From NCBI GenBank assembly GCA_043718025.1, contig JAYSWN010000072.1, positions 1 through 12,364 on the forward strand: 12,364 nt of DNA. Direction: 5' to 3'. The stretch comes from Pseudomonadota bacterium. GTDB lineage: Bacteria > Bdellovibrionota > FAC87 > UBA2466. The position numbers and the translations under genes were made by a program. This document shows, piece after piece, positions 321-12,100 of the stretch. The notes beneath the pieces are model-generated. The model did no database searches and was not told where the DNA came from. It was given only the letters and a program-made list of their open reading frames with translations. Every line of letters starts with the position of its first letter. Position 1 is the first letter of the stretch.

Positions 321-2240
321 CTATTCAAATACGCGAAGGTGTCCAAAGGCCATGGGAAAAGCATTAAACTGGGGACGAATGGCAATGGCATCGAATCCCG
401 CGGTTTGGGCCGGCCGTGGAATTTGAATCGTTCGAGTTAAGATTCCCAATCCTGCGGCCGCTGGTAGCGGGGCGATTCCCACTTCCTGGTCCCCTTTGAG
501 AAAGACCAGCGTTGCATTTTTTGAGCGATCCGCGCTCAACTCGACCCTAGGCGCGTGCGATAGTGAACCCATTTCGATGAGCAGGCCGTTTTGTCCCATT
601 GGGGTGAGGCCCGAAGCATTGCTAGCGGCGCTATCCCGTACCACGGCTTGAGTCTCCGCCAGCCGAACCGAATGGCCTCCGTAGCGGTAGCGTCTTTTGT
701 CGACTAGCTGATCGTAGCGACCCAAGTTCATACTTAAAATGGCGCCCCACCTCGCTTTTGTGAAGAGATCGCCGCGGGTGATGAGCATCACTTTTTCCCA
801 GAAAACACCGAGCGCAGGATCTTTGAGCCAATTTTTTCCCGCCAGGGCCGACTCAGGGTAGCCCTCGGGAACTTCCCGCTTAAAATGTCCAATTCGCCAA
901 GTCGCGTTGTACGAGGCCGGTAATCGAGACAGCAGTGGATCGGCCAGCGAGTGCAAGTCAATAAAGTGCGCCTCTGGCCCCGCCTGGAAACCACCCAAGC
1001 CAATCAGCGTGGTGGCAACTACGCGACGGCCTCCAGAGGGAGCAGCAACTCGCAGATCGTTTCGTGAGAGTGTGGTTAAGCCGAAATAAGGCACGTACCA
1101 CGCACGCTCGTCGGCGATCCCCGCCTTTTCAAGTTTATGGCGACTTGAACTTGCCGTGAGTTGCGACCCGTTTGTGCGCAGTCCCAGCGCAATGAGCAAA
1201 CCAGCGGCAGTTATTATCGTGGCCAGTGATTTTCGCCGTTCCAGCTTAAGTGAGAGCAAAGCGAACGTTGAAGACAGCACGGTCGTCGAAAAAAATCGGC
1301 CGGCCATAAAATCTCCGCCGACCCACAACACGTAGATTAGGTGAGAAAGAATTCCGAACGTAAGGGCTAAAGTCTTCGGATTACGAAACAACAATCCCGT
1401 GGCGACGGCGGTGAAAATTACGATCACGCCCAGCGGATCAAACCTCGCAAAATTAATAAAATAGAGCAGTCCCTGACCAAGGTATTCGCCGCGATTAATT
1501 CCGGTAAGCACTTTAGCGTAGTACGGCCCGGGCAAAAAATTTCCATAGTAGACCAGGGCGAAGAGTTCCCAGGCGAAAAGGGGCGACAGTCCCAAAGCGA
1601 GCCATCCAAAAAAGTTCGGACTACCCCGATGCTTCCACAGCCCGTAGCCCAGCGGCGGCAAGAGCAGCCACAGGTTATCGAGCCGATTCACCAAGGCGAG
1701 CGAAAAAAAGAGGGTGAGCGCAAAAACCTGGTGCGGTTTTTCGGTAGGGCTAAGAAGGCGTTCTACGAATTTTGCAATTAAGAAATAAGAAAGTGCGGTT
1801 TCAAGCCCACCGGCTCCATGCTCGGTGACGGCGCGAGAAAAGAGAAGCGCCGAGGCGGCAACCAGGGCGGCTAGCGGCCCGCGGGCGATTTGTCGGGTCG
1901 CCACAAAGAGAGTTCCCATCCAGAAAAAAAAGGAGATGGCGAGCGTCGTATAAAACGGTTCGCGGGTGATGGAGTAGGCAACGGTGAGCAATAAGACCCA
2001 CAGCGGATTGGTAAAGGCTTGAACCCGCTCGGCCACGTTCCATCTTAACCCGTAGCCATTTACAAAGTTATCGACCACCCGAAGGCAGATAAAAGCATCG
2101 TCTCCCATCCACGCTAAGCGCACAAAAACGATAAGCCCCACGGCCATGGTGGTGGCCACTACCGCGCGATGGCGGATGGCGAGCGAAAGCCCCCTTGTTC
2201 GGTCTGCAAACAAAAGAAAAGGGGACCGAACGTTTTCCAT
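321..2240 (-). CDS. AftB-like (arabinofuranosyltransferase-family, GT-C fold) polytopic membrane glycosyltransferase with an extra C-terminal soluble domain
   Basis: 639 aa with many hydrophobic segments. First-loop motif WMGDDAFICLRVVDNFVNGYGLRWNVAERVQAFTNPLW (DD at aa 47-48), plus YYGNFLPGPYYAK, VGGDFMAGRF and IDLHSLADPLLSRLP...WRIGHF, all resembling AftB-family motifs. Sugar specificity cannot be read from sequence. Confidence 0.8.
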   Translation of the reverse strand: MENVRSPFLLFADRTRGLSLAIRHRAVVATTMAVGLIVFVRLAWMGDDAFICLRVVDNFVNGYGLRWNVAERVQAFTNPLWVLLLTVAYSITREPFYTTLAISFFFWMGTLFVATRQIARGPLAALVAASALLFSRAVTEHGAGGLETALSYFLIAKFVERLLSPTEKPHQVFALTLFFSLALVNRLDNLWLLLPPLGYGLWKHRGSPNFFGWLALGLSPLFAWELFALVYYGNFLPGPYYAKVLTGINRGEYLGQGLLYFINFARFDPLGVIVIFTAVATGLLFRNPKTLALTFGILSHLIYVLWVGGDFMAGRFFSTTVLSSTFALLSLKLERRKSLATIITAAGLLIALGLRTNGSQLTASSSRHKLEKAGIADERAWYVPYFGLTTLSRNDLRVAAPSGGRRVVATTLIGLGGFQAGPEAHFIDLHSLADPLLSRLPASYNATWRIGHFKREVPEGYPESALAGKNWLKDPALGVFWEKVMLITRGDLFTKARWGAILSMNLGRYDQLVDKRRYRYGGHSVRLAETQAVVRDSAASNASGLTPMGQNGLLIEMGSLSHAPRVELSADRSKNATLVFLKGDQEVGIAPLPAAAGLGILTRTIQIPRPAQTAGFDAIAIRPQFNAFPMAFGHLRVFE

Positions 2241-2382: not shown

Positions 2383-3561
2383 ATGAGTTTAGTCATAGTT
2401 CAGCCGCACCGCTCTGCAGTTAGCGAAACTTTTATCCGCGCCCACACCCGGCTGCCGACTGCGACTACGGTATTGCACGGGTTTCCCGCTGAGTACGTGG
2501 ATGGCCCCATCCTCAGCTCAAACTTTGGCGCGCGAGCCCTGCGCCGGATAGATCGGATGCTGAGTGGAAAAGGGGCGCAGTGGGAAATGACTCGCTCGCT
2601 TCTCATCGCCTTGAAAGACTGTAAGGCCGAAGCCGTACTCGCCGAATACGGCACCACCGGCGCCCACGCGGCCGAAGCCTGCCACATTTCAGGCGTGCCA
2701 CTCATCGTTCACTTTCACGGCTACGACGCCAGCCACACGCCAACGCTTCGCCACTATGGCGAGCGGTACCGGCAAACATTTTTAGTGGCTAAAGCCTTGG
2801 TCGTGGTCTCGCGCCCGATGCAGCAAGCACTTTTAGACTTGGGGGCGCCGGCCGATAAGATTCATTTTTGTCCTTACGGCGTCGATACCGATTTCTTTTC
2901 GCCACCACCGAGTCCGGAACTTAGGCCACCTACGACGGCGCCACTTTTTATCGCGGTGGGACGCCTCGTAGAAAAAAAGGCACCGCACTTACTGCTGCTG
3001 GCCTTTGCTAATGTGCTGGCCCAGTTTCCGAAGGCGCGATTGCAAATTATAGGTGACGGGCCGTTGCGCGGTGTTTGTCGGGATTTAGTGCCCGCCTTGG
3101 CGATGGAACATGCGGTTACCTTTCTTGGTGAGCGGTCGCCGCAGCAGGTGCGCGATGCGCTTCGCGGCGCCCAAGTTTTTGTGCAGCACTCAGTGACCGC
3201 GTTTGATGGCGATAGCGAGGGCACTCCGGTTGCCATTCTCGAGGCCAGCGCCAGTGGTCTGCCGGTAGTCTCTACGCACCACGCCGGAATTTCTGAAGCG
3301 GTAATTGAGGGGGCGACGGGTTTTTTGGTCGAGCCCGGAAATAGCCAGGCCATGGCCGAACGGATGACGTTTTTATGCCGCGATTCGGCGGCGGCCCAAA
3401 GGCTGGGCGCTAACGGCCGCCAACACGTTCTGGCTAATTACGCGCAAGGGCCGCAGCTTGCCCAACTTTGGTCGGTCATCCACCAAGCCATTGAGGCCGC
3501 AAAGCAGGCGAAAAGTGTCACCGCTCTGCATCAGAGTTTGGTAATGGTTCCGGTGGGTTAA
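2383..3561 (+). CDS. Glycosyltransferase family 4 (GT-B), WcaL/AmsK-like
   Basis: 392 aa. N-terminal SETFI, VHFHGYD, VGRLVEKK, IIGDGPL, and the retaining-GT EX7E motif GDSEGTPVAILEASASGLPVVST (E codons at 3217 and 3241), followed by HAGISEAVIEGATGFLV. Confidence 0.9.
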   Translation: MSLVIVQPHRSAVSETFIRAHTRLPTATTVLHGFPAEYVDGPILSSNFGARALRRIDRMLSGKGAQWEMTRSLLIALKDCKAEAVLAEYGTTGAHAAEACHISGVPLIVHFHGYDASHTPTLRHYGERYRQTFLVAKALVVVSRPMQQALLDLGAPADKIHFCPYGVDTDFFSPPPSPELRPPTTAPLFIAVGRLVEKKAPHLLLLAFANVLAQFPKARLQIIGDGPLRGVCRDLVPALAMEHAVTFLGERSPQQVRDALRGAQVFVQHSVTAFDGDSEGTPVAILEASASGLPVVSTHHAGISEAVIEGATGFLVEPGNSQAMAERMTFLCRDSAAAQRLGANGRQHVLANYAQGPQLAQLWSVIHQAIEAAKQAKSVTALHQSLVMVPVG

Positions 3562-3664: not shown

Positions 3665-4537
3665 ATGAATTTATGGTTCTCCCTATTTTTGATCTTAACG
3701 CCGTGGAGCGGTGCCTTCGCTGCCATCGAAAAGCCCGGTCCTCCTTTGGTTTTCGTGGAGAAGATGAAATCTGCGGCACTGCATGACGAACTTACTTATC
3801 CCGCGCGTTTAGTTTCTAAAACCTCGGCCGCACTGCTTGCCGAAACCGACGGGGTGGTTAGAAAAATTTCGGCGCCGTTGGGCCGTGCGGTGAAGCGCGA
3901 AGAGACCGTGCTAACCATCGCCAATACCGATCCCATTTACGAATACGCCCCGATGGCGGTTCGTAGTCCCGTAGCCGGCGTGGTGAGCTCGGTTGAGGTT
4001 ACCGAAGGTAGCCGGGTGGCAAAGGGGCAACGGCTCGCTTCGGTTACCGATCCGGCGCAAGTAAAAATTTTGGTCGAAGTGGCCGCGGCCGATCTGTTTG
4101 CCATCACGCGCGGACTATCCGGCGAACTTTCCGTAAATTCGCAAGTGAAACCAATCAACGTCACCGTGATTGGCATGAGCCCCTTTGTTGATCCGGGCAC
4201 GGGTACCGCCACGGTAGAGCTTTCACTCGTTGATACCAAGAGCAAAGTTCCGCTGCCGCCGGGGCTGGTGGGCAAGGTCAGTTTTAAAGTGCGTGAGCAT
4301 CAGGGGCTACAGCTTCCTGAAAGTGCGGTGGTCTACCGCGGCCGTCTGCCGGCGGTGCGGGTGGTTGAAAGCGGTAAGGCCCGCTACGCCCCGGTTACGC
4401 TGGGGCCTTCGCGCCAGGGGCTGGTCGAGATTTCGCAGGGAGTGAAAGAAGGGGCCGAGGTTATCTTACGATCGAGCGCCTTCGTGGCCGAAGGCGAAGA
4501 GGTAAAAGTTCAACCTGCCGAAGGGCCTAAATCTTGA
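3665..4537 (+). CDS. RND efflux periplasmic adaptor subunit (membrane fusion protein), lacking the alpha-helical hairpin
   Basis: 290 aa from ATG 3665. Signal-like N-terminus (...SGAFA/A), lipoyl halves ETDGVVRKI...G.AVKREE.VL.I and VRSPVAGVVSSVEVTEGSRVAKGQRL, beta-barrel SPFVDPGTGT and LPPGL, membrane-proximal LPESAV...VTLG...VEISQGVKEG. Its stop overlaps the RND start (TTGA). Confidence 0.9.
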   Translation: MNLWFSLFLILTPWSGAFAAIEKPGPPLVFVEKMKSAALHDELTYPARLVSKTSAALLAETDGVVRKISAPLGRAVKREETVLTIANTDPIYEYAPMAVRSPVAGVVSSVEVTEGSRVAKGQRLASVTDPAQVKILVEVAAADLFAITRGLSGELSVNSQVKPINVTVIGMSPFVDPGTGTATVELSLVDTKSKVPLPPGLVGKVSFKVREHQGLQLPESAVVYRGRLPAVRVVESGKARYAPVTLGPSRQGLVEISQGVKEGAEVILRSSAFVAEGEEVKVQPAEGPKS

Positions 4538-7500
4538 GCAAACTCTACTCGTCACCCCTCAGGGTCTATTTGATGCTGGGCTTTTTGGGTCTGCTGGGAA
4601 TCTACGCCGGATTCAATCTGCCGGTATCGCTGTTTCCCAACAGTTCAAAGCCGGTGGTGTGGTTCAGCATTCCTTACGGCAACCTGACCAGCGAAGAGTT
4701 TTTAAACACCCATGGCAAGGCCATAGAAAATCAGGTTCGTGGCATTACCGTCGACAAGGCGGAGGTTGAGGTCATTCAGGCGTTTTACGGAAGGCATAGC
4801 GCCGAATTCGAAGTATTTTTTAAATGGGGAGCCATTCCCAATACCGCGCTCAAAGAGGTGCAGACGCTGGTCAACTCGTACGTTGCGCGTTTGTCCGATG
4901 AGTCGCGCGATGGCTTAAGGCTCTGGCTCAATAACGAGAACTCCGGTTTTTTTGCGGTTAGCTTTTTTAGTGAAACGCGCGATCTCGACGATCTCTATGA
5001 TTATTTAGAGCCCTTAATTGGCCCCAAAATAGCAAAAGTGAAAGACGCCCAAGACCCCGTACTGTGGAATCCTTCGAGCAAAGAGGTGCGGGTAGAGTTT
5101 AATCCCAACACCATGGCGGCCTTGGGGCTGTTTCCGCGCGACGTTGACCAAGCCATTGCCACGTCACTCGGTGGCCGCAACGGTGGTGCCCTCACCATTG
5201 GAAATTCTCGTCTGCAAGTGGAGATGCCGCGGCAACTTCAAAAGGCCGAAGACTTAAAGCACGTGCCAATTATTTCCCCGGCCGGCCGCATGGTTCATTT
5301 AGGCGATTTCGCCCACATTAGCGTTGGCCCCAAAACCCAAGACTCAAAGAGTTTCAAAACCAACGGCGCCCCGAGTTTGATCCTATTCGCCACCCCGCGC
5401 CCCGGCGGCAACGTAAAACGCATGTCGGAAGAGCTGCTTCAGGTGGTGACCGAGCTGATGCCCACTTTGCCCAAAGACATTCAATACCGGGTACTGGTTG
5501 ACCCCTCCGAGTTCATCCGGTCGGCGGTTGAAAATGTGTTTCACGAAGTGGCGATTGCCGCGTTGCTGGCGGTGTTCATTCTTTTCTTGTTCATCGGTAG
5601 CGTGCGCAACGTGATTACGGCGGCCATCGAGATTCCGCTGAGCATGATCTTGGCCTTTATTCTCATGCGTTGGACCGGAATGAATTTGAATCTGATTTCG
5701 CTGGGCGGCTTGGCCCTTTCGGCCGGCATGAACGTAGATGGTTCGGTGGTGGTGATGGAAAACATTTTTCGTCATTTCGAACTTGAGCCCGGTCCGCACG
5801 ATGCGCCGTCGCGCCTGCGCCTGGTGATGAAAGCGGTCAGCGAAGTTCGTTTCCCGATCATCGCATCCACGATTGCGTCGTTGGTGGTCTTTTTGCCGTT
5901 AACCCTAACCTCGGATTTGAGTTACGCCATTTTAGGTGACCTTGCCTACGCCGTGGTCTTTTCGCACGGTTTTTCGGCGATCGTCGCTTTGCTGCTCGTG
6001 CCCACCGTGCGCTTGCACCTGATGCAATCGGGTAAAGACGTTGGCCATTCGCACTCGCCGATCGAAAAACAGCTTAAAGGGCTGGAGAGTTGGTACGGCC
6101 GGACGCTCGGCAGGTTTTTGCTTGCTCCCAAGTTTCGTCTCGGCAGTTACGCGGGCCTTTCGTTGGCGCTCGTGTTGCTAGTGCTGCTGGTGATTCCTCG
6201 TCTGCCAAAAGAGATCGTAGGGGTGCCCGATACTGACTGGATGGTGCTTTCGATCAACACCGAGGGCAACACCCTGGTAAAGCAGATGGAAGTGCAGACC
6301 GAGGAGATCGAAAAGCAGCTGCTAACCGAGTTTGGCTCTAAGGTCCGTTACACTTTCAGCCAAGTGCGCGATCCCAACCGCGGCAACTTGATGGCGCGGC
6401 TAAAAAACAAAGGCGAAATGCGCGAGGTGTGGAAGGCCCTGGAGAAGCGCTTTACCAACACGCCTCTACTTCGTTTTTGGGTCGGGCCGTGGAACCCCAG
6501 CGAACTTCCTATTCCTAACCCTCCCGACATGCGAATTGCGGTGCGCGGAGGTACGTTGCTTGATCGGGCTAGTGTGGCCAAAGAGATTAACGATTTGATG
6601 GAGGAGAAAAAAGTTTTTCCGCGTATCGAAATGCAGCCGAAAGCTGACATGACCTTCTCGTTAGTGCTGTCGCCGTACAACGAACAGTGGGAAAGTTTGC
6701 GGCAGCAGGGGGCCCGATTTAGCGCCGGCGATCTCGCCGACTTGGTTCGTGTCGCCACGCAAGGGCGGCGTACTGCCTATTTGCCCTTGAAAGATCGTCA
6801 GACCGAGATCGTTTTTCAGTTTCCGCAAAATTATGCCACCTCCGTCGAAGACGTGGCGGCACTACCGGTTGGGGTCAGTTCTAAAATTATTCCGCTGAAA
6901 GCCTTAGCGAGGGTCGAACGGCAAGAGGCCCTTCCCTCGTTATTCAGAGAAGACCAGCGCGAGCTTTTTGTGGTTAAGGGGCGAGTCCCGAGCAACGAAC
7001 TTAAGAAAGATACGGCCCCTTACCTGGCAAAGGCCAAGCTCGCGGTCGCGGAGTGGGAAAGCAAAAGACCTAAACCGGTACCCGGAGCGGTAGCCCCTAC
7101 GGTAACCTTCGAAGAGGCTTCAACCGAGCTGAAGGACGCTATCCATCAACTGTCGGTGGCGTTGGCGCTTTCGGTGGTGCTGATCTTTTTGACCATGCTG
7201 TTTCAGTTCGGCAGCTTTGCCGAGCCCTTGCTGGTGTTGGTATCTATTCCGCTCGGGTTTATCGGGGTGTTGATTTCGCTCTTTGTTTTTGGCAGCACGC
7301 TTTCGTTGAATTCGATCTTGGGCGTGATTCTACTCAATGGGATTTCGGTGGCGAACAGCATTATTCTCGTTGATTTCATCAAACGACTGGTGGATTCGGG
7401 CATGAGTCCAAAGGAGGCAGCGATTGAAGCCGCCCAAAAACGGTTGCGCCCTATTTTGATCACTTCGCTCACTACCGTGTTGGGCATGCTGCCGGTTGCC

Positions 7501-8982
7501 ATTGGCCTGGGTGAGGGCGGTAGAATTTTGCAGCCGCTGGGCATCGCGGTGTCGGGGGGGCTATGGGTTTCAATGGGGCTGACGCTCTTTTTGGTTCCCG
7601 CTCTGCAGGTGAGTTATCTCGAATGGCGAAGCCGTGAAAATACCGGCGATGGCTTCTGGATGCGAATTTTTAGCCTGGTGAAATGGCGGCGAAACACTGG
7701 AACCGTTCCGGCGGCATTTTTTCTCGCGGTTCTGGGCACTTTTTGGAGTCAGACCGTAGTGGCCGCGCCGGCTTCGTTCGAAGCCGCTTTGCAAACAATT
7801 GTAGAACGACATCCAGATGTTGGCATTGAAAAGGCGGCGCTAAATTCGTTAGAGAGTAAAAATCTGTCGTCGCATTTAAGTCTGCTTCCGAGCATTTCCT
7901 TGTTTGCTCGGCAACGTAATGACGAAGCCTTTAGTGCCACTTCGGTAAAAAAGGGCGTAGGCCTTTCGGCAGACATCAATATTTTAAAGTTTGGTGCCGA
8001 CGTGGCGGCCATGCGCGCTGCTTCCGCCGAAGAGTCGGCACAAGAGGCCAGTGTGGTGCTGTCGGTGCTGAAAGTCGAAGCCTTGGGCGTAAAGGCACTG
8101 GCGGCGACCATTCAAGCCGAGTTGGAATTTGGCGTGCAGAAAAAAATTGTAACGATGTGGGAGGACTACCTCAAAATAGCTAGGCAGCGTTACCAGCAGG
8201 GGCGACTGGCTTCGCAGGAGGCCGACAAGGTAGAAATTGATTTTGAAAATGCCCGCGCCCAAATGCGGGATGCGGAGTCGAATGCGGTGAGCGCCCACGC
8301 CGAATTAACCGCCTATCTCGGCCAGCCGGAAGTCGAAGTGAGTTGGCCGTGGCGTGCGCTTTTAGAAGGGTACGCCGAAAAGGGGATCGCCGAACCGGGA
8401 ATAGACCTGTCGCGCCGGCCCGATTGGATTGCCGCCGAAAAGCGCAGCGTGGCCGTGGGGCATCGCGAGTCTCAAGCATTGGGTAACGCCCTGCCTTCGC
8501 TAGACGCCAATTTCACCTACGGCTACTTTGATAACCGCATGGCGGGCGTAAGTTCGAACGGCCCCGAGTGGTCAGCAAGTGTCGCCTTAACTGTGCCGCT
8601 CTTTGATAGGCTAACGAAATACGGAGATTACCGGGCAATGGTGCACCGTCGCGCCGGGGCAGAATTGGAATGGGAAAAGACAAAACGCTTCGCCAAAGCT
8701 GACTGGGAGGCGGCGGTGGGATCGCTAAACGTCTCGCTAAAAACCGCCCACGCTCGCGAAGGCACCGTGGCATTGGCCCGGCGGCTCTATGAAGATAATT
8801 TAAAACGTTTTCGCCAGGGGCTTGCCGCAGTTACCGAGGTTAGCGTAGACCAAGACCGCCTGTACCGCGCCGAAATCTTAGCGATTCGGGGCTGGAACGC
8901 CGCCCACCTGAATTTGGTTCGTTTTTGTCACGCCAAAGGGGACCGTGTGGCCATTTGCCTGAGGAGCGCCTCGGCAAAGTAA
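4534..8982 (+). CDS. RND efflux permease (AcrB/CzcA superfamily) fused in frame to a C-terminal TolC-family outer-membrane factor
   Basis: 1482 aa with a TTG start overlapping the MFP stop. aa 1 to ~1030 carry RND motifs: LPVSLFP, LFLFIGSVR...IPLS, NLISLGGLALSAGMNVDGSVVVMENI, FQFGSFAEPLLVLVSIPLG, RLRPILITSLTTVLGMLP, LQPLGIAVSGGL, LTLFLVPAL. aa ~1078-1482 carry two OEP-like repeats: LLPSISL / ALPSLDANF, RYQQGRLAS / RFRQGLAA, RRPD, LTVPLFD. Confidence 0.92.
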   Translation: MSKLYSSPLRVYLMLGFLGLLGIYAGFNLPVSLFPNSSKPVVWFSIPYGNLTSEEFLNTHGKAIENQVRGITVDKAEVEVIQAFYGRHSAEFEVFFKWGAIPNTALKEVQTLVNSYVARLSDESRDGLRLWLNNENSGFFAVSFFSETRDLDDLYDYLEPLIGPKIAKVKDAQDPVLWNPSSKEVRVEFNPNTMAALGLFPRDVDQAIATSLGGRNGGALTIGNSRLQVEMPRQLQKAEDLKHVPIISPAGRMVHLGDFAHISVGPKTQDSKSFKTNGAPSLILFATPRPGGNVKRMSEELLQVVTELMPTLPKDIQYRVLVDPSEFIRSAVENVFHEVAIAALLAVFILFLFIGSVRNVITAAIEIPLSMILAFILMRWTGMNLNLISLGGLALSAGMNVDGSVVVMENIFRHFELEPGPHDAPSRLRLVMKAVSEVRFPIIASTIASLVVFLPLTLTSDLSYAILGDLAYAVVFSHGFSAIVALLLVPTVRLHLMQSGKDVGHSHSPIEKQLKGLESWYGRTLGRFLLAPKFRLGSYAGLSLALVLLVLLVIPRLPKEIVGVPDTDWMVLSINTEGNTLVKQMEVQTEEIEKQLLTEFGSKVRYTFSQVRDPNRGNLMARLKNKGEMREVWKALEKRFTNTPLLRFWVGPWNPSELPIPNPPDMRIAVRGGTLLDRASVAKEINDLMEEKKVFPRIEMQPKADMTFSLVLSPYNEQWESLRQQGARFSAGDLADLVRVATQGRRTAYLPLKDRQTEIVFQFPQNYATSVEDVAALPVGVSSKIIPLKALARVERQEALPSLFREDQRELFVVKGRVPSNELKKDTAPYLAKAKLAVAEWESKRPKPVPGAVAPTVTFEEASTELKDAIHQLSVALALSVVLIFLTMLFQFGSFAEPLLVLVSIPLGFIGVLISLFVFGSTLSLNSILGVILLNGISVANSIILVDFIKRLVDSGMSPKEAAIEAAQKRLRPILITSLTTVLGMLPVAIGLGEGGRILQPLGIAVSGGLWVSMGLTLFLVPALQVSYLEWRSRENTGDGFWMRIFSLVKWRRNTGTVPAAFFLAVLGTFWSQTVVAAPASFEAALQTIVERHPDVGIEKAALNSLESKNLSSHLSLLPSISLFARQRNDEAFSATSVKKGVGLSADINILKFGADVAAMRAASAEESAQEASVVLSVLKVEALGVKALAATIQAELEFGVQKKIVTMWEDYLKIARQRYQQGRLASQEADKVEIDFENARAQMRDAESNAVSAHAELTAYLGQPEVEVSWPWRALLEGYAEKGIAEPGIDLSRRPDWIAAEKRSVAVGHRESQALGNALPSLDANFTYGYFDNRMAGVSSNGPEWSASVALTVPLFDRLTKYGDYRAMVHRRAGAELEWEKTKRFAKADWEAAVGSLNVSLKTAHAREGTVALARRLYEDNLKRFRQGLAAVTEVSVDQDRLYRAEILAIRGWNAAHLNLVRFCHAKGDRVAICLRSASAK
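7660..7764 (+). other. Internal signal-peptide-like linker between the RND and OMF moieties
   Basis: MRIFSLVKWRRNTGTVPAAFFLAVLGTFWSQTVVA|AP has a basic n-region, a hydrophobic h-region and a polar c-region ending in V-x-A. Confidence 0.6.
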
Positions 8983-8990
8983 ACTATTTT

Positions 8991-8994
8991 GGAG
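8991..8994 (+). promoter_or_regulatory. Shine-Dalgarno (GGAG) for the ABC-F gene
   Basis: GGAG lies 5 nt upstream of the ATG at 9000. Confidence 0.6.
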
Positions 8995-8999
8995 TAAGT

Positions 9000-10580
9000 A
9001 TGATTAGCACAACAGATCTGTCATTGGCCTTTGCCGGGCGCCGCCTTTTCGACAACGTGAACGTAAAGTTTGTGGCCGGTAATTGTTATGGATTAATCGG
9101 GGCCAACGGCGCCGGAAAATCTACCTTTCTCAAAATTTTGGCCGGGCTAGAAACCCCCTCTTCGGGCACGGTAGCCATCACCCCGGGCGAGCGGCTCTCT
9201 TTTTTGCGGCAGGACCACTTTGCCTTCGACGACCGCACGGCTTTAAAAACCGTGATCATGGGCCAACCCAAACTCAACTCGTTAATTGAAGAGCGAGAAG
9301 CACTTTACGCTAAAGCTGAGTTTTCGGATGCCGACGGCGACCGTGCCGCCGAGCTGGAGTCTGAATTTGGCGACATGAATGGCTGGAACGCTGACTCTGA
9401 TGCGGCCACCATGCTCTCGGGGCTGGGAATTGATACCGAGCTGCACGAAACTAAAATGAGTGAGCTCAACGGCTCGCAGAAAATTAAGGTACTTCTGGCC
9501 CAGGCGCTATTTGGAACTCCCGACATTCTTTTACTCGACGAACCTACCAACCATTTAGACTCTGAGGCCATTCGCTGGTTAGAAGATTTTTTGTACGACT
9601 TCGAACAAGTAGTGATCGTGGTCTCCCATGATCGTCATTTTTTGAACAAAGTCTGCACCCACATGGCCGACATCGACTTTGGTAAGATTGAGCTCTATTC
9701 GGGTAACTATGATTTTTGGTATGAGTCGAGCCAGCTCGCGCTGCGTCTGCAACAGGAAAAAAATCGTAAGTCCGACGACAAGGCCAAAGAGTTAAAAGAG
9801 TTTATCGCCCGATTTAGCGCCAACGCGTCTAAGTCAAAACAGGCCACTTCACGCAAGAAGCAGCTTGAAAAGTTGACCCTCGATGACATCAAGCCTTCTT
9901 CTCGCAAATACCCGTTCGTTGGCTTTAAGCCCGAGCGCGAGGCGGGGGATCAGCTTTTGAAAGTAGAAAACTTATCGAAAGTGATCGACGGCAAAGAGAT
10001 CTTAAGCAACGTCACCTTTACGATCAAAAAGAACGAGAAGGTGGTTTTTGTAGGCGACGAAATCGCTAGCTCCACTTTATTTGAAATATTGGTGGGCAAT
10101 CTTTTACCCGACTCTGGAACGTTCAATTGGGGAATCACCACGTCGCAGGCCTACTTTCCCAAGGAGAACGCCAAATTTTTTGAGCGCAACGACATGAACC
10201 TGATTGACTGGCTTCGGCAGTATTCAGACGAGAAAAGCGAAACGTTTATTCGGGGCTTTTTAGGGCGAATGCTTTTTTCCGGTGAAGAGACCTTGAAAAA
10301 GGTGTCGGTGCTATCCGGAGGCGAAAAGGTACGCTGCATGCTTTCGCGTATGATGCTTGGTTCGGCCAATGTGCTTTTGCTCGACGGCCCCACCAACCAT
10401 CTCGATTTGGAATCGATTACCGCGGTTAACAATGGACTGGTGCGATTTGCCGGCACCATCTTGTTCACCTCGCACGATCATCAGTTTAACCAGACCATTG
10501 CGACGCGAGTGATTGAACTCGTGGCGTGGGGTGCCGAGAGTCACGAGATGTCGTACGATCAGTACTTAGAACAGAAGTAG
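9000..10580 (+). CDS. ybiT: ABC-F family ATP-binding protein (ribosome-associated, YbiT/YkpA subfamily)
   Basis: 526 aa from ATG 9000, with two ABC domains and no TM segments. Motifs: GANGAGKST, LLLDEPTNHLD, VSHDRHFLN, YSGNYDFW, linker FIARFSANASKSKQATSRKK, LSGGEKVRC, LLLDGPTNHLDLESI, SHDH. The subfamily call rests on recalled similarity. Confidence 0.9.
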   Translation: MISTTDLSLAFAGRRLFDNVNVKFVAGNCYGLIGANGAGKSTFLKILAGLETPSSGTVAITPGERLSFLRQDHFAFDDRTALKTVIMGQPKLNSLIEEREALYAKAEFSDADGDRAAELESEFGDMNGWNADSDAATMLSGLGIDTELHETKMSELNGSQKIKVLLAQALFGTPDILLLDEPTNHLDSEAIRWLEDFLYDFEQVVIVVSHDRHFLNKVCTHMADIDFGKIELYSGNYDFWYESSQLALRLQQEKNRKSDDKAKELKEFIARFSANASKSKQATSRKKQLEKLTLDDIKPSSRKYPFVGFKPEREAGDQLLKVENLSKVIDGKEILSNVTFTIKKNEKVVFVGDEIASSTLFEILVGNLLPDSGTFNWGITTSQAYFPKENAKFFERNDMNLIDWLRQYSDEKSETFIRGFLGRMLFSGEETLKKVSVLSGGEKVRCMLSRMMLGSANVLLLDGPTNHLDLESITAVNNGLVRFAGTILFTSHDHQFNQTIATRVIELVAWGAESHEMSYDQYLEQK

Positions 10581-10582
10581 AT

Positions 10583-11512
10583 TTGGCTAAACGGTTTCAA
10601 AAGGTAAATATCGAGATCAGCAACATCTGCAACTTGCAGTGTAGCTTTTGTCCCCCGGTTAACCGTAAAAAGGGGATGATGGAACCGGCGCTTTTTGCCG
10701 ACATTATTCGCGCCGTGGCCCCGCTCACCGAACAGGTCTGTTTTCATTTGATGGGCGACCCGCTAGTGCACCCTGAATTGACGACGCTACTCGACATCTG
10801 CCAACGGCATGCCACGCGCGTATTTTTTGTTACCAATGGGGTTCTGCTCAGCGATAAAGCCGCCGTCCTGCTTATGCATCCGGCCCTTCGACAAGTTAAT
10901 TTTTCTCTGCACAGCTTTCACGATAACTACGGTGACAAAGACCCAACCCCCTACCTGCAAAAGATTTTTGCATACACTGAACGCGCTTTTGAAATTAGGC
11001 CCGATCTCTATATCAATTACCGAATTTGGAATTTGCAAGAAGCGCGCGGTAGCACCGTGATGCAAACGGATATTCTTTCGGCCGTTGAAAAGCGTTTCGG
11101 AGTCACCGTAAATCGTGACCCCAACGTGCGGCACCGTAAAGGGCACCGCCTTAAGCATCGGCTTTATGTTCATTACGACACTGAATTTGTCTGGCCTGAT
11201 TTGAATCTGCCGCTACTCGGTGAAGAGGGGCGCTGCCATGGACTCAGCACCCATTTCGGAATTTTGGTGGATGGCACGGTGGTGCCTTGTTGTTTAGACA
11301 AAGAAGGAAAGATTGCTCTGGGAAACGTAACCTCGGCGCCGCTTACCCAGATTCTGGATTCTCCGCGCGCTAAGGCCATGGTTACCGGTTTCCAAAACGG
11401 GAAGTTGGTCGAAGAACTTTGCCGTCGTTGTCAGTACATTGAGCGTTTTCCGAAACTAAAGAAAAACCTACGGGCTAGCGATGAAAATTCGGCACGGGGA
11501 ATTGGGGCATGA
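10583..11512 (+). CDS. Radical SAM protein with a C-terminal SPASM/twitch-type Fe-S domain
   Basis: Likely TTG start at 10583, 2 nt after the ABC-F stop (MAKRFQKVNIEISNI..., 309 aa). CNLQCSFC is a CxxxCxxC motif (10628-10651), followed by MGDPLVHP, VTNG and C-terminal CHG...GILVDGTVVPCCLD...LGNV...LCRRC. Confidence 0.88.
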   Translation: MAKRFQKVNIEISNICNLQCSFCPPVNRKKGMMEPALFADIIRAVAPLTEQVCFHLMGDPLVHPELTTLLDICQRHATRVFFVTNGVLLSDKAAVLLMHPALRQVNFSLHSFHDNYGDKDPTPYLQKIFAYTERAFEIRPDLYINYRIWNLQEARGSTVMQTDILSAVEKRFGVTVNRDPNVRHRKGHRLKHRLYVHYDTEFVWPDLNLPLLGEEGRCHGLSTHFGILVDGTVVPCCLDKEGKIALGNVTSAPLTQILDSPRAKAMVTGFQNGKLVEELCRRCQYIERFPKLKKNLRASDENSARGIGA

Positions 11513-12068
11513 GGCTCTGTTCCACTTCGCTTAGCCGTTGCACGTCTTCTTGCGTACGCTGAATGATTGTGACGATGGTTTTTACATCGGCCCACTCCAG
11601 CATTTTGAGCCTGGCCAGAGCATCGTTGCGCAGGCTTGAAGCGGCCGATTCGTCGCCCAACATTAGGCGGCCGACCTTGGCCGACCAGCTGTCTAGCGTG
11701 TCTAAATAGAAGAACAACAGTTCATCTCGGCACAATTCGGTAAGTGCTTTGTTGCTGTCGTGAAACGAGATCATGGTAACCCGCCGATCTCTTTCTTCGC
11801 AACCTAAGGTGCGCCCCTTGGTTTCAACCCAACGGACCAGCTTTTTATCGAAGCTGGTCAGGCTGCTCTCTTTGGATCGGATGATGGCTTTGAATTGGGA
11901 AAAGAGCCTGAGCCAGTCGCCGTACCGGCTTATCACCGCGGCTTCGAGCGCCAATCTAAAAAGCGATAGCGAGGTGCCTTCATCGCTGCGGTTTGAGGCT
12001 TTTACTTCGCGTAACGATTTTAGGGCTAGATCCGAAAGGGTGATGACTAAGGATGAACTACGAAACAT
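11475..12068 (-). CDS. Hypothetical protein (197 aa, appears soluble and mostly alpha-helical)
   Basis: Long open frame with ATG at 12068, preceded by GGAGGT at 7-nt spacing and by a sigma54-like promoter. No recognisable motif. Its 3' end overlaps the rSAM gene by 38 nt. Confidence 0.75.
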   Translation of the reverse strand: MFRSSSLVITLSDLALKSLREVKASNRSDEGTSLSLFRLALEAAVISRYGDWLRLFSQFKAIIRSKESSLTSFDKKLVRWVETKGRTLGCEERDRRVTMISFHDSNKALTELCRDELLFFYLDTLDSWSAKVGRLMLGDESAASSLRNDALARLKMLEWADVKTIVTIIQRTQEDVQRLSEVEQSLMPQFPVPNFHR

Positions 12069-12075
12069 GCGACCG

Positions 12076-12081
12076 ACCTCC
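12076..12081 (-). promoter_or_regulatory. Shine-Dalgarno GGAGGT
   Basis: Minus strand reads GTGGAGGTCGGTCGC-ATG. Confidence 0.75.
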
Positions 12082-12100
12082 ACCTTGTGCTTAGTACTTC

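What the first reader, a model, noticed from the sequence alone, without database searches (positions are those of the whole stretch)
3842..4040. Adaptor protein lacks the alpha-helical hairpin (BesA-like)
Seen: the two lipoyl half-motifs (...GRAVKREETVLTI and VRSPVAGVV...) are joined by only ~13 residues, ANTDPIYEYAPMA (3920-3958), which contain two prolines and no heptad helix. The whole protein is only 290 aa. Established: in AcrA, MexA and CusB a long coiled-coil hairpin sits at this position and contacts and opens the OMF; Borrelia BesA is the known hairpin-less exception. Inference: together with the RND-OMF fusion, this points to a non-canonical pump assembly with direct RND-OMF contact or another gating mechanism, and hairpin loss may co-occur with the fusion.
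Basis: partly seen in the sequence, partly recalled or inferred. Interest (0 to 1): 0.75.

Follow-up and report, generated by a model that had tools for sequence, protein, structure and literature searches.

The report
Hairpin-less efflux pump adaptor family
This efflux-pump adaptor lacks the coiled-coil arm that normally opens the outer-membrane exit channel, as do all its many relatives whether or not their pump and channel genes are fused, so these pumps likely dock the channel through a short conserved loop, giving many new test cases for a pump design whose one solved adaptor comes from the Lyme disease bacterium.

Summary
Observation confirmed. The 290-aa adaptor (3665-4537) joins its lipoyl halves with a 13-residue loop. 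The AlphaFold model (pLDDT 93) has no hairpin, and Borrelia BesA is its best structural match, gapless across the loop. It is not decay: 72 of 72 close homologues and 137 of 139 complete distant representatives keep the spacing (two are shorter), with a conserved D-P-x-Y-x-Y loop. Titled records are mostly Bdellovibrionota.

The proposed link to the RND-OMF fusion fails. Of 57 non-redundant loci 18 are fused and 39 split, and the adaptor is hairpin-less in 18 of 18 and 37 of 37 readable ones. Fusion is scattered on the tree. Fused junctions keep the OMF signal peptide, with a linker too short for a tethered channel, so the chain is likely cut by signal peptidase I. The scan noted such a fusion before on other DNA.

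The OMF lacks TolC's Y362/R367 lock (suggestive only), and no hairpin substitute lies nearby. Hairpin-less MacA-type adaptors occur in the same genomes. Verdict: a new variant of the BesABC-type pump; loop-to-channel docking is inferred.

The parts
3665..4537 (+). Periplasmic adaptor (PAP/MFP), 290 aa: membrane-proximal, beta-barrel and lipoyl domains, no alpha-hairpin
   Evidence: TIGR01730 116 bits over cut-off 94.9; AlphaFold model; BesA best match
3665..3721 (+). Predicted Sec/SPase I signal peptide ending A-F-A; no lipobox cysteine
   Evidence: Sequence; a lipobox-like pattern in only 10 of 208 Met-initiated family members; no signal-peptide predictor was available
3824..3919 (+). First half of the lipoyl domain (residues 54-85)
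   Evidence: Model strands 54-58, 63-68, 81-86; matches to biotin carboxyl carrier domains over 53-128
3920..3958 (+). 13-residue loop in place of the hairpin; family motif D89-P90-x-[YF]92-x-[YF]94
   Evidence: 72 of 72 same spacing; D89 90%, P90 93%, Y/F92 94%, Y/F94 97% among 141-143 distant representatives
3953..4048 (+). Second half of the lipoyl domain (residues 97-128)
   Evidence: Pfam Biotin_lipoyl 97-125; model
4534..7617 (+). RND permease part of the fused ORF (residues 1-1028); start codon overlaps the adaptor's stop
   Evidence: Pfam ACR_tran 17-1024 against profile 18-1016; N-terminal docking subdomain without insertion against solved RNDs
7699..7764 (+). Internal signal-peptide-like segment: basic stretch before it, hydrophobic core about 1058-1067, predicted SPase I site V-V-A/A between residues 1077 and 1078
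   Evidence: the cleavage is predicted from a simple rule, not shown
7765..8982 (+). TolC-family outer membrane factor, 405 aa after the predicted cut
   Evidence: Pfam OEP twice; family profile colinear with TolC 7-373
8809..8859 (+). H7/H8 tip of the OMF: Phe at the TolC Y362 position, no Arg at the R367 position, family-conserved Asn/Asp, Asp/Glu and invariant Arg further on
   Evidence: TolC gate residues from PMC8277102 section 62

Best explanation
This is an intact BesA-type adaptor with no alpha-hairpin, encoded in a conserved adaptor-RND-OMF operon, and it likely builds a shortened tripartite efflux pump in which the channel tip sits on the ring of lipoyl domains and their conserved D-P-x-Y-x-Y loops. 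Shown: no hairpin; a loop fixed in length and sequence across a large clade; operon order; hairpin loss in split and fused loci alike; no hairpin-sized insertion in RND or OMF; no fourth conserved gene. Inferred, step 1: the adaptor is exported by Sec, cut by SPase I and binds the RND head as a soluble protein through its MP, barrel and lipoyl domains. Step 2: where RND and OMF are one ORF, the retained signal peptide acts as a 13th membrane segment, exports the OMF and is cut by SPase I, giving the same three proteins as the split loci. Step 3: lipoyl domains form a ring and the aromatic loops seal against the OMF tip, possibly with the RND funnel rim. Step 4: the OMF lacks TolC's Y362/R367 lock and would need little force to open. 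The substrate is not known.
For: Hairpin absent and BesA the best match. Loop spacing identical in 72 of 72 and 137 of 139 complete representatives, the two others shorter. The loop is confidently modelled and conserved. P90 and the aromatic residue 94 are in register with BesA and with a Treponema adaptor. 18 fused against 39 split loci, all readable adaptors hairpin-less. Fusion is scattered on the tree. A hydrophobic core plus small-residue site was found in 14 of 14 fused junctions and 25 of 25 separate OMF N-termini. Core hydropathy of at least 2.19 was reached by 16 of 17 fused junctions (the other 2.0), 0 of 31 cytoplasmic tails of split RNDs and 1.6% of 1000 random OMF windows. Only 5-20 residues separate the core from OMF helix 1 in 13 of 14 fusions (14 here). 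Helix 1 sits mid-way up a 100 A barrel above a 70 A RND head. OMF tip: Phe in 49 of 50 at the Y362 position and Arg in 0 of 50 at the R367 position; breaking these bonds opens TolC, and BesC's gates are predicted weak.
Against: Nothing here shows a contact between loop and OMF, a cleavage, expression or transport. The 2.19 threshold was taken from the data themselves and no trained signal-peptide predictor was run. Loss of the TolC gate residues is not diagnostic: OprM and VceC use other locks, and a canonical NodT-type OMF also has Phe at that position. The family has its own conserved polar set (Asn 46 of 50, Asp/Glu 50 of 50, Arg 50 of 50) that could be a tight gate. A D-P pair also starts the hairpin in ordinary adaptors (MexJ alignment), so D89-P90 may be only a turn. 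BesA's loop is flexible in crystals. One fusion (L050) has a 53-residue linker. The RND lacks the D408 and K940 equivalents, so its energetics differ from AcrB's. ORFs under 120 aa were not examined for a helper.
Confidence: 0.55

Rival explanations
1. Direct RND-OMF docking (the model proposed for BesABC): the RND funnel rim binds and opens the OMF, the adaptor only clamps the RND, and the loop is a structural turn.
For: Proposed for BesABC by Bunikis 2008 and Greene 2013. D-P is also a helix cap in hairpin adaptors. Both docking subdomains are nearly constant in length (36 of 39 and 25 of 39 the same as here).
Against: No insertion lifts the docking domain above a lipoyl ring. Two aromatic loop positions are conserved, one of them shared with spirochaete adaptors. 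Hairpin-less adaptors also sit beside MacB-type ABC transporters, which are not RNDs and so have no RND funnel.
Confidence: 0.22
2. No sealed duct, or an unlinked helper: the RND-adaptor complex releases substrate near a permanently open OMF, or a coiled-coil protein encoded elsewhere supplies the bridge.
For: Greene et al. could not exclude an unknown factor. BesC conducts about four times more than TolC. The TolC lock residues are absent.
Against: The three genes stay together in all 54 non-redundant loci where the OMF could be seen, and repeated fusion to the RND implies tight 1:1 co-production. No fourth gene is shared widely (largest other families 11-12 loci). A helper elsewhere in the genome was not searched for.
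Confidence: 0.15
3. One reading: the RND-OMF fusion stays uncut, tethers the channel and so made the hairpin dispensable.
For: One open frame of 1482 aa; 18 fused loci; L050 has a long linker.
Against: 39 split loci have the same hairpin-less adaptor. The fusion is scattered on the tree. The signal-peptide features are kept. The linker is too short to reach OMF helix 1.
Confidence: 0.05
4. A decaying gene, a strain-specific deletion or an assembly error.
For: A few loci have broken frames (L014, L031, L039, L054).
Against: More than 200 homologues with the same spacing and motif; orthologues in 18 of 40 sampled relatives.
Confidence: 0.01

Closest known systems
BesA / BesABC of Borrelia burgdorferi (PDB 4KKS-4KKU; Greene 2013, Bunikis 2008) and related Treponema adaptors
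   Same: MP, barrel and lipoyl domains with no hairpin; the same loop length; Pro and an aromatic residue in register; an RND partner; an OMF without TolC's gate network; best structural match (Z about 20).
   Different: Only 20-25% identity. Gene order is adaptor-RND-OMF, against besC-A-B. The signal is SPase I type, against lipidated Cys26. The loop is D-P-x-Y-x-Y with an acidic residue where BesA and Treponema have Arg/Lys. The RND and OMF are fused in about a third of loci. The lineage is mostly Bdellovibrionota. A common origin is neither shown nor rejected (p-AU 0.50).
AcrAB-TolC, MexAB-OprM, CusCBA tripartite RND pumps
   Same: Three components; the same adaptor domains apart from the hairpin (Z 14-18); a colinear OMF; D407-, R971- and T978-equivalent residues kept.
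   Different: No hairpin; TolC Y362/R367 not kept; D408 and K940 equivalents are Ala/Gly and Ala/Asn; no lipid anchor on the adaptor.
Membrane proteins made as one chain with an internal signal peptide
   Same: A polytopic membrane protein followed by an internal export signal for a C-terminal domain (Streptomyces Rieske protein, Tat pathway; passage in PMC13186574). The cleaved Bradyrhizobium FbcH cytochrome b-c1 precursor is recalled only; one search did not find it.
   Different: Here the signal is Sec-type and the released part is an outer-membrane channel. RND-TolC fusions in Bacteroidota CzcA proteins are recalled, not tested.

Membership tests
Periplasmic adaptor proteins (RND MFP, TIGR01730) | Family score above the curated cut-off; MP, barrel and lipoyl domains | tested here: met
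   116.3 bits against 94.9; model and fold matches
Canonical AcrA/MexA/CusB adaptors | Alpha-helical hairpin between the lipoyl halves | tested here: not met
   13-residue loop; no helix there
BesA-type hairpin-less adaptors | Short loop in place of the hairpin, other three domains kept | tested here: met
   Gapless alignment with BesA and a Treponema adaptor; top fold match
BesA-type hairpin-less adaptors | Encoded with an RND and a TolC-family gene | tested here: met
   54 of 57 non-redundant loci show the OMF; 3 end at the contig edge
BesA-type hairpin-less adaptors | N-terminal lipidation (BesA Cys26); a BesA trait rather than the defining one | tested here: not met
   No Cys in the signal region here; lipobox-like pattern in 10 of 208
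BesA-type hairpin-less adaptors | Common descent with the spirochaete adaptors | tested here: inconclusive
   Not grouped in the free quick tree; grouping not rejected, p-AU 0.50; BesA itself was not in the tree
BesABC-type pump | Drug efflux and a wider, weakly gated channel | not testable with these tools
   Only sequence proxies at the OMF tip
HAE1 AcrB-type RND | Proton relay D407, D408, K940, R971, T978 | tested here: not met
   D 39/39, R 39/39 and T 36/39 (position 980) kept; D408 position Ala 36/Gly 3; K940 position Ala 36/Asn 3
SPase I-cleaved polyprotein | Basic n-region, hydrophobic core and small residues at -3/-1 at the junction | tested here: met
   (simple rule with controls)
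SPase I-cleaved polyprotein | Cleavage in the cell | not testable with these tools
   Needs proteomics or a western blot

The most novel reading that the evidence does not exclude
Bdellovibrionota use a whole class of hairpin-free tripartite exporters, RND and MacB-type alike, in which a lipoyl-loop ring gaskets directly onto a natively unlatched TolC-family channel. The RND version has repeatedly become a polyprotein that signal peptidase splits between two membranes. This would be a second, hairpin-independent way to build and open trans-envelope pumps.
Probability: 0.4. Interest if true: 0.75.

Novelty: new variant of a known kind. Interest (0 to 1): 0.52.

Why it matters
All solved tripartite pumps that I compared use adaptor hairpins to bind and open the exit channel. 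A 2015 review calls hairpin-less BesA perhaps the biggest challenge to the tip-to-tip model, and BesB could not be expressed for structural work. This clade offers dozens of complete three-gene sets from environmental bacteria and a conserved loop to mutate, which makes the question testable. The recurring RND-OMF fusion with a kept signal peptide would be a neat case of one gene feeding two membranes. Hairpin loss by itself is already known.

Tried and rejected
Complex prediction (two copies of adaptor residues 40-212 plus one OMF protomer, own 50-row alignments): no verdict, scores 0.08 and 0.06 against a mark of 0.32, controls not folded; it is used neither for nor against. A trimer was over the size limit.

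Sequencing runs: no RNA holder listed. The two further runs laid did not cover the junction.

Search for distant fusions with residues 1040-1482: only 3 proteins, all close relatives, among 7994 scored candidates. tblastn of the fused protein against plasmids: no place covering 80% among the 5000 best records. Fusions in other phyla therefore remain untested.

The C-terminal docking subdomain had no phmmer hit in the PDB. Absence of an insertion there rests on the Pfam span and on length constancy.

The careful RND tree did not finish, so the quick tree is reported (L031 and L019-type partial OMFs aside, L031's split RND was left out). In the adaptor tree P0081 was labelled hairpin-bearing but proved hairpin-less and grouped with the Treponema adaptor. 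The test that all hairpin-less adaptors form one clade did not finish; Bdellovibrionota RND-type plus MacA-type was not rejected (p-AU 0.149).

The first spacing pattern was off by one and was rerun. A charge-swap idea (acidic loop, basic OMF tip) was considered and left untested.

Literature searches that found no description of this clade, of RND-OMF fusions or of hairpin-less MacA adaptors. The library lacks most subscription journals, and Greene's supplementary figure 2 (list of hairpin-less sequences) was not seen.

Full report
Observation. The adaptor ORF runs from ATG 3665 to 4537 (290 aa) and passes the TIGR01730 cut-off. Residues 86-98 (3920-3958) join the two lipoyl halves and hold two prolines. 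AlphaFold2 on 72 homologues gives pLDDT 92.9 with no helix except 141-146, so no hairpin is hidden elsewhere. BesA is the best match by profile (E 1e-16, no gap across the loop), by Foldseek and by VIA-align (Z 20.0-20.6, next entries 18.4 and below).

Conservation. A protein search gave 110 hits, of which 77 (query included) form a clade above 170 bits, separated from the rest at 80 bits and below. I aligned 72 full-length members; all 72 have the same 29-residue span from G73 to S101. A profile search of 50%-identity representatives found 253 proteins at E 1e-30 or better and listed 150. Of the 146 new ones, 7 were incomplete, 137 have the same span and 2 are two residues shorter. D89, P90 and aromatic residues at 92 and 94 are kept in 90-97%. 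These searches favour sequences like the query, so they show a large hairpin-less clade, not the absence of hairpin-bearing cousins. Record titles are mostly Bdellovibrionota/Oligoflexia. Orthologues were found in 18 of 40 sampled relatives of this genome. The adaptor has an SPase I-type signal and no cysteine; 10 of 208 members show a lipobox-like pattern, whereas BesA is lipidated.

Does hairpin loss go with the fusion? No. Of 111 loci with the adaptor (and the window), 72 show the end of the RND. After merging RNDs at 97% identity, 57 remain: 18 fused, 36 split with the OMF gene next, and 3 split at a contig end. The hairpin-less motif has identical spacing in 18 of 18 fused and 37 of 39 split loci; the other two are cut off before the loop. 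On a quick tree of 39 RNDs (14 fused, 25 split) the fused label needs 7 changes, at least 4 forced by strongly supported branches; the direction is not determined. Most split loci overlap the RND stop with the OMF start, so small changes can join or part them. A Treponema saccharophilum locus has separate OMF, adaptor and RND genes and the same gapless span, with Pro and Phe in register.

What the fusion is. After the last RND helix comes a basic stretch, a hydrophobic core and a small-residue site just before OMF helix 1. This holds in 14 of 14 fused junctions examined, like the N-termini of 25 of 25 separate OMFs (mean core hydropathy 2.70 against 2.64). In the control, 16 of 17 fused junctions, 0 of 31 split-RND tails of 10 or more residues and 1.6% of 1000 random OMF windows reach 2.19, a threshold taken. 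The core ends 5-20 residues before the first conserved OMF residue in 13 of 14 cases (14 here, 53 in L050). That residue aligns with the start of TolC. Helix 1 lies in the equatorial belt mid-way along a 100 A barrel above a 70 A RND head, roughly 110-120 A from the inner membrane by my sum. Fourteen residues span about 50 A at most. An uncut chain therefore cannot form a normal pump, and I infer SPase I cleavage at 1077/1078 (about 80%).

What replaces the hairpin? Not an insertion: the RND covers ACR_tran with 1008 residues for 999 profile positions, its first docking subdomain aligns to solved RNDs without extra sequence, and the OMF profile is colinear with TolC 7-373. Not a neighbour: no other family of 120 aa or more is shared by more than 11-12 loci, shadow frames aside. 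At the OMF tip, the TolC Y362 position is Phe in 49 of 50 and the R367 position is never Arg. The aligned TolC chain 2xmn itself shows F362 and S367, the double change that opens TolC about tenfold in conductance according to PMC8277102, which also predicts weak gates for BesC. This is suggestive only: OprM and VceC use other locks, a canonical OMF also has Phe there, and the family has its own invariant Arg and acidic residues. The RND keeps the D407, R971 and T978 equivalents but not D408 or K940; the Treponema RND has the same single-aspartate pattern. The substrate is unknown.

Wider pattern. This genome has five intact adaptors over TIGR01730. Besides the window's, one beside OMF and MacB genes has a loop of the same length, one beside an ABC permease has a turn nine residues shorter, one has a mini-hairpin and one (HlyD-like) a full hairpin. 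Among ten further genomes searched, three have hairpin-less adaptors beside MacB (not every match was fetched), while ordinary hairpin adaptors also occur in several. On an adaptor tree without the loop columns, the RND-type clade (99) and the MacA-type clade (100) are separate and the deep branches are weak. Joining the RND-type clade with the spirochaete type is not rejected (p-AU 0.50), nor with the MacA type (0.149). The number of hairpin losses is open.

Mechanism. I commit to a shortened pump: a soluble adaptor on the RND head, a lipoyl ring whose conserved aromatic loops seat an easily opened OMF, and, in fused loci, release of the OMF by SPase I (0.55). Direct RND-OMF docking (0.22) and an unsealed or helper-dependent route (0.15) remain; a working uncut tether is unlikely (0.05).

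Literature seen. PMC3807786: parts 1-2 of 4 (abstract to discussion; supplements not seen). It reports hairpin-less adaptors in Borrelia, Treponema, Spirochaeta and rarely proteobacteria. PMC2279261, PMC4446572, PMC4827864, PMC13186574, PMC11559062 and PMC13328181: passages only. PMC8277102: passages and part 1 of section 62. Searches found no account of this clade or of the fusion; FbcH and Bacteroidota CzcA-TolC fusions are recalled only.

Verdict. The feature is real and conserved, and it works like BesA. The fusion is a separate, recurring trait and not its cause. New variant of a known kind; interest 0.52.

Noticed in passing
G000:C149:28334-29212 (L138:4335-5213), with OMF upstream and MacB downstream: MacA-type adaptor with no hairpin (28-29 residue span); relatives beside MacB in G006, G019 and G035 (L177, L185, L197) form a well-supported clade.
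   Followed up: partly
G000:C2:27282-28085 (L137:5283-6086): Adaptor whose lipoyl halves are joined by a very short turn (span 20), followed by an ABC permease and ATPase with no adjacent OMF; similar in L194 (span 21); L200 (span 23) groups with hairpin-bearing adaptors.
   Followed up: partly
G000:C199:130251-131219 (L139:4252-5220): MacA-type adaptor with a mini-hairpin (span 47) between OMF and MacB; conserved in L188 and L193.
   Followed up: partly
window 5737-5742 and 7351-7353 (RND residues 402-403 and 940): Single-aspartate proton relay: D407 equivalent invariant, D408 and K940 equivalents replaced across 39 RNDs.
   Followed up: partly
window 8926-8958 and 8344-8352 (OMF residues 1465, 1475 and 1271-1273): Two conserved cysteines near the OMF C-terminus (43 and 38 of 50; possible disulfide) and a conserved W-P-W motif.
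   Followed up: no
window 321-2240 (-), 2383-3561 (+), 8925-10580 (+), 10526-11512 (+), 11475-12083 (-): Neighbours: a membrane glycosyltransferase-like protein (weak arabinofuranosyltransferase hit), a GT4 glycosyltransferase, an ABC-F ATPase, a radical SAM/SPASM protein and an ORF with no family hit; none is a widely conserved neighbour of the pump.
   Followed up: partly
L007, L013, L018, L032, L054, L151 downstream of the OMF: Two gene families recur on the opposite strand after the OMF in 11-12 loci (duplicates included) of related genomes; one looks by eye like a cation diffusion facilitator (not scanned).
   Followed up: no
L014, L031, L039, L054: Broken frames in the RND or adaptor gene; assembly error or decay not told apart.
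   Followed up: no
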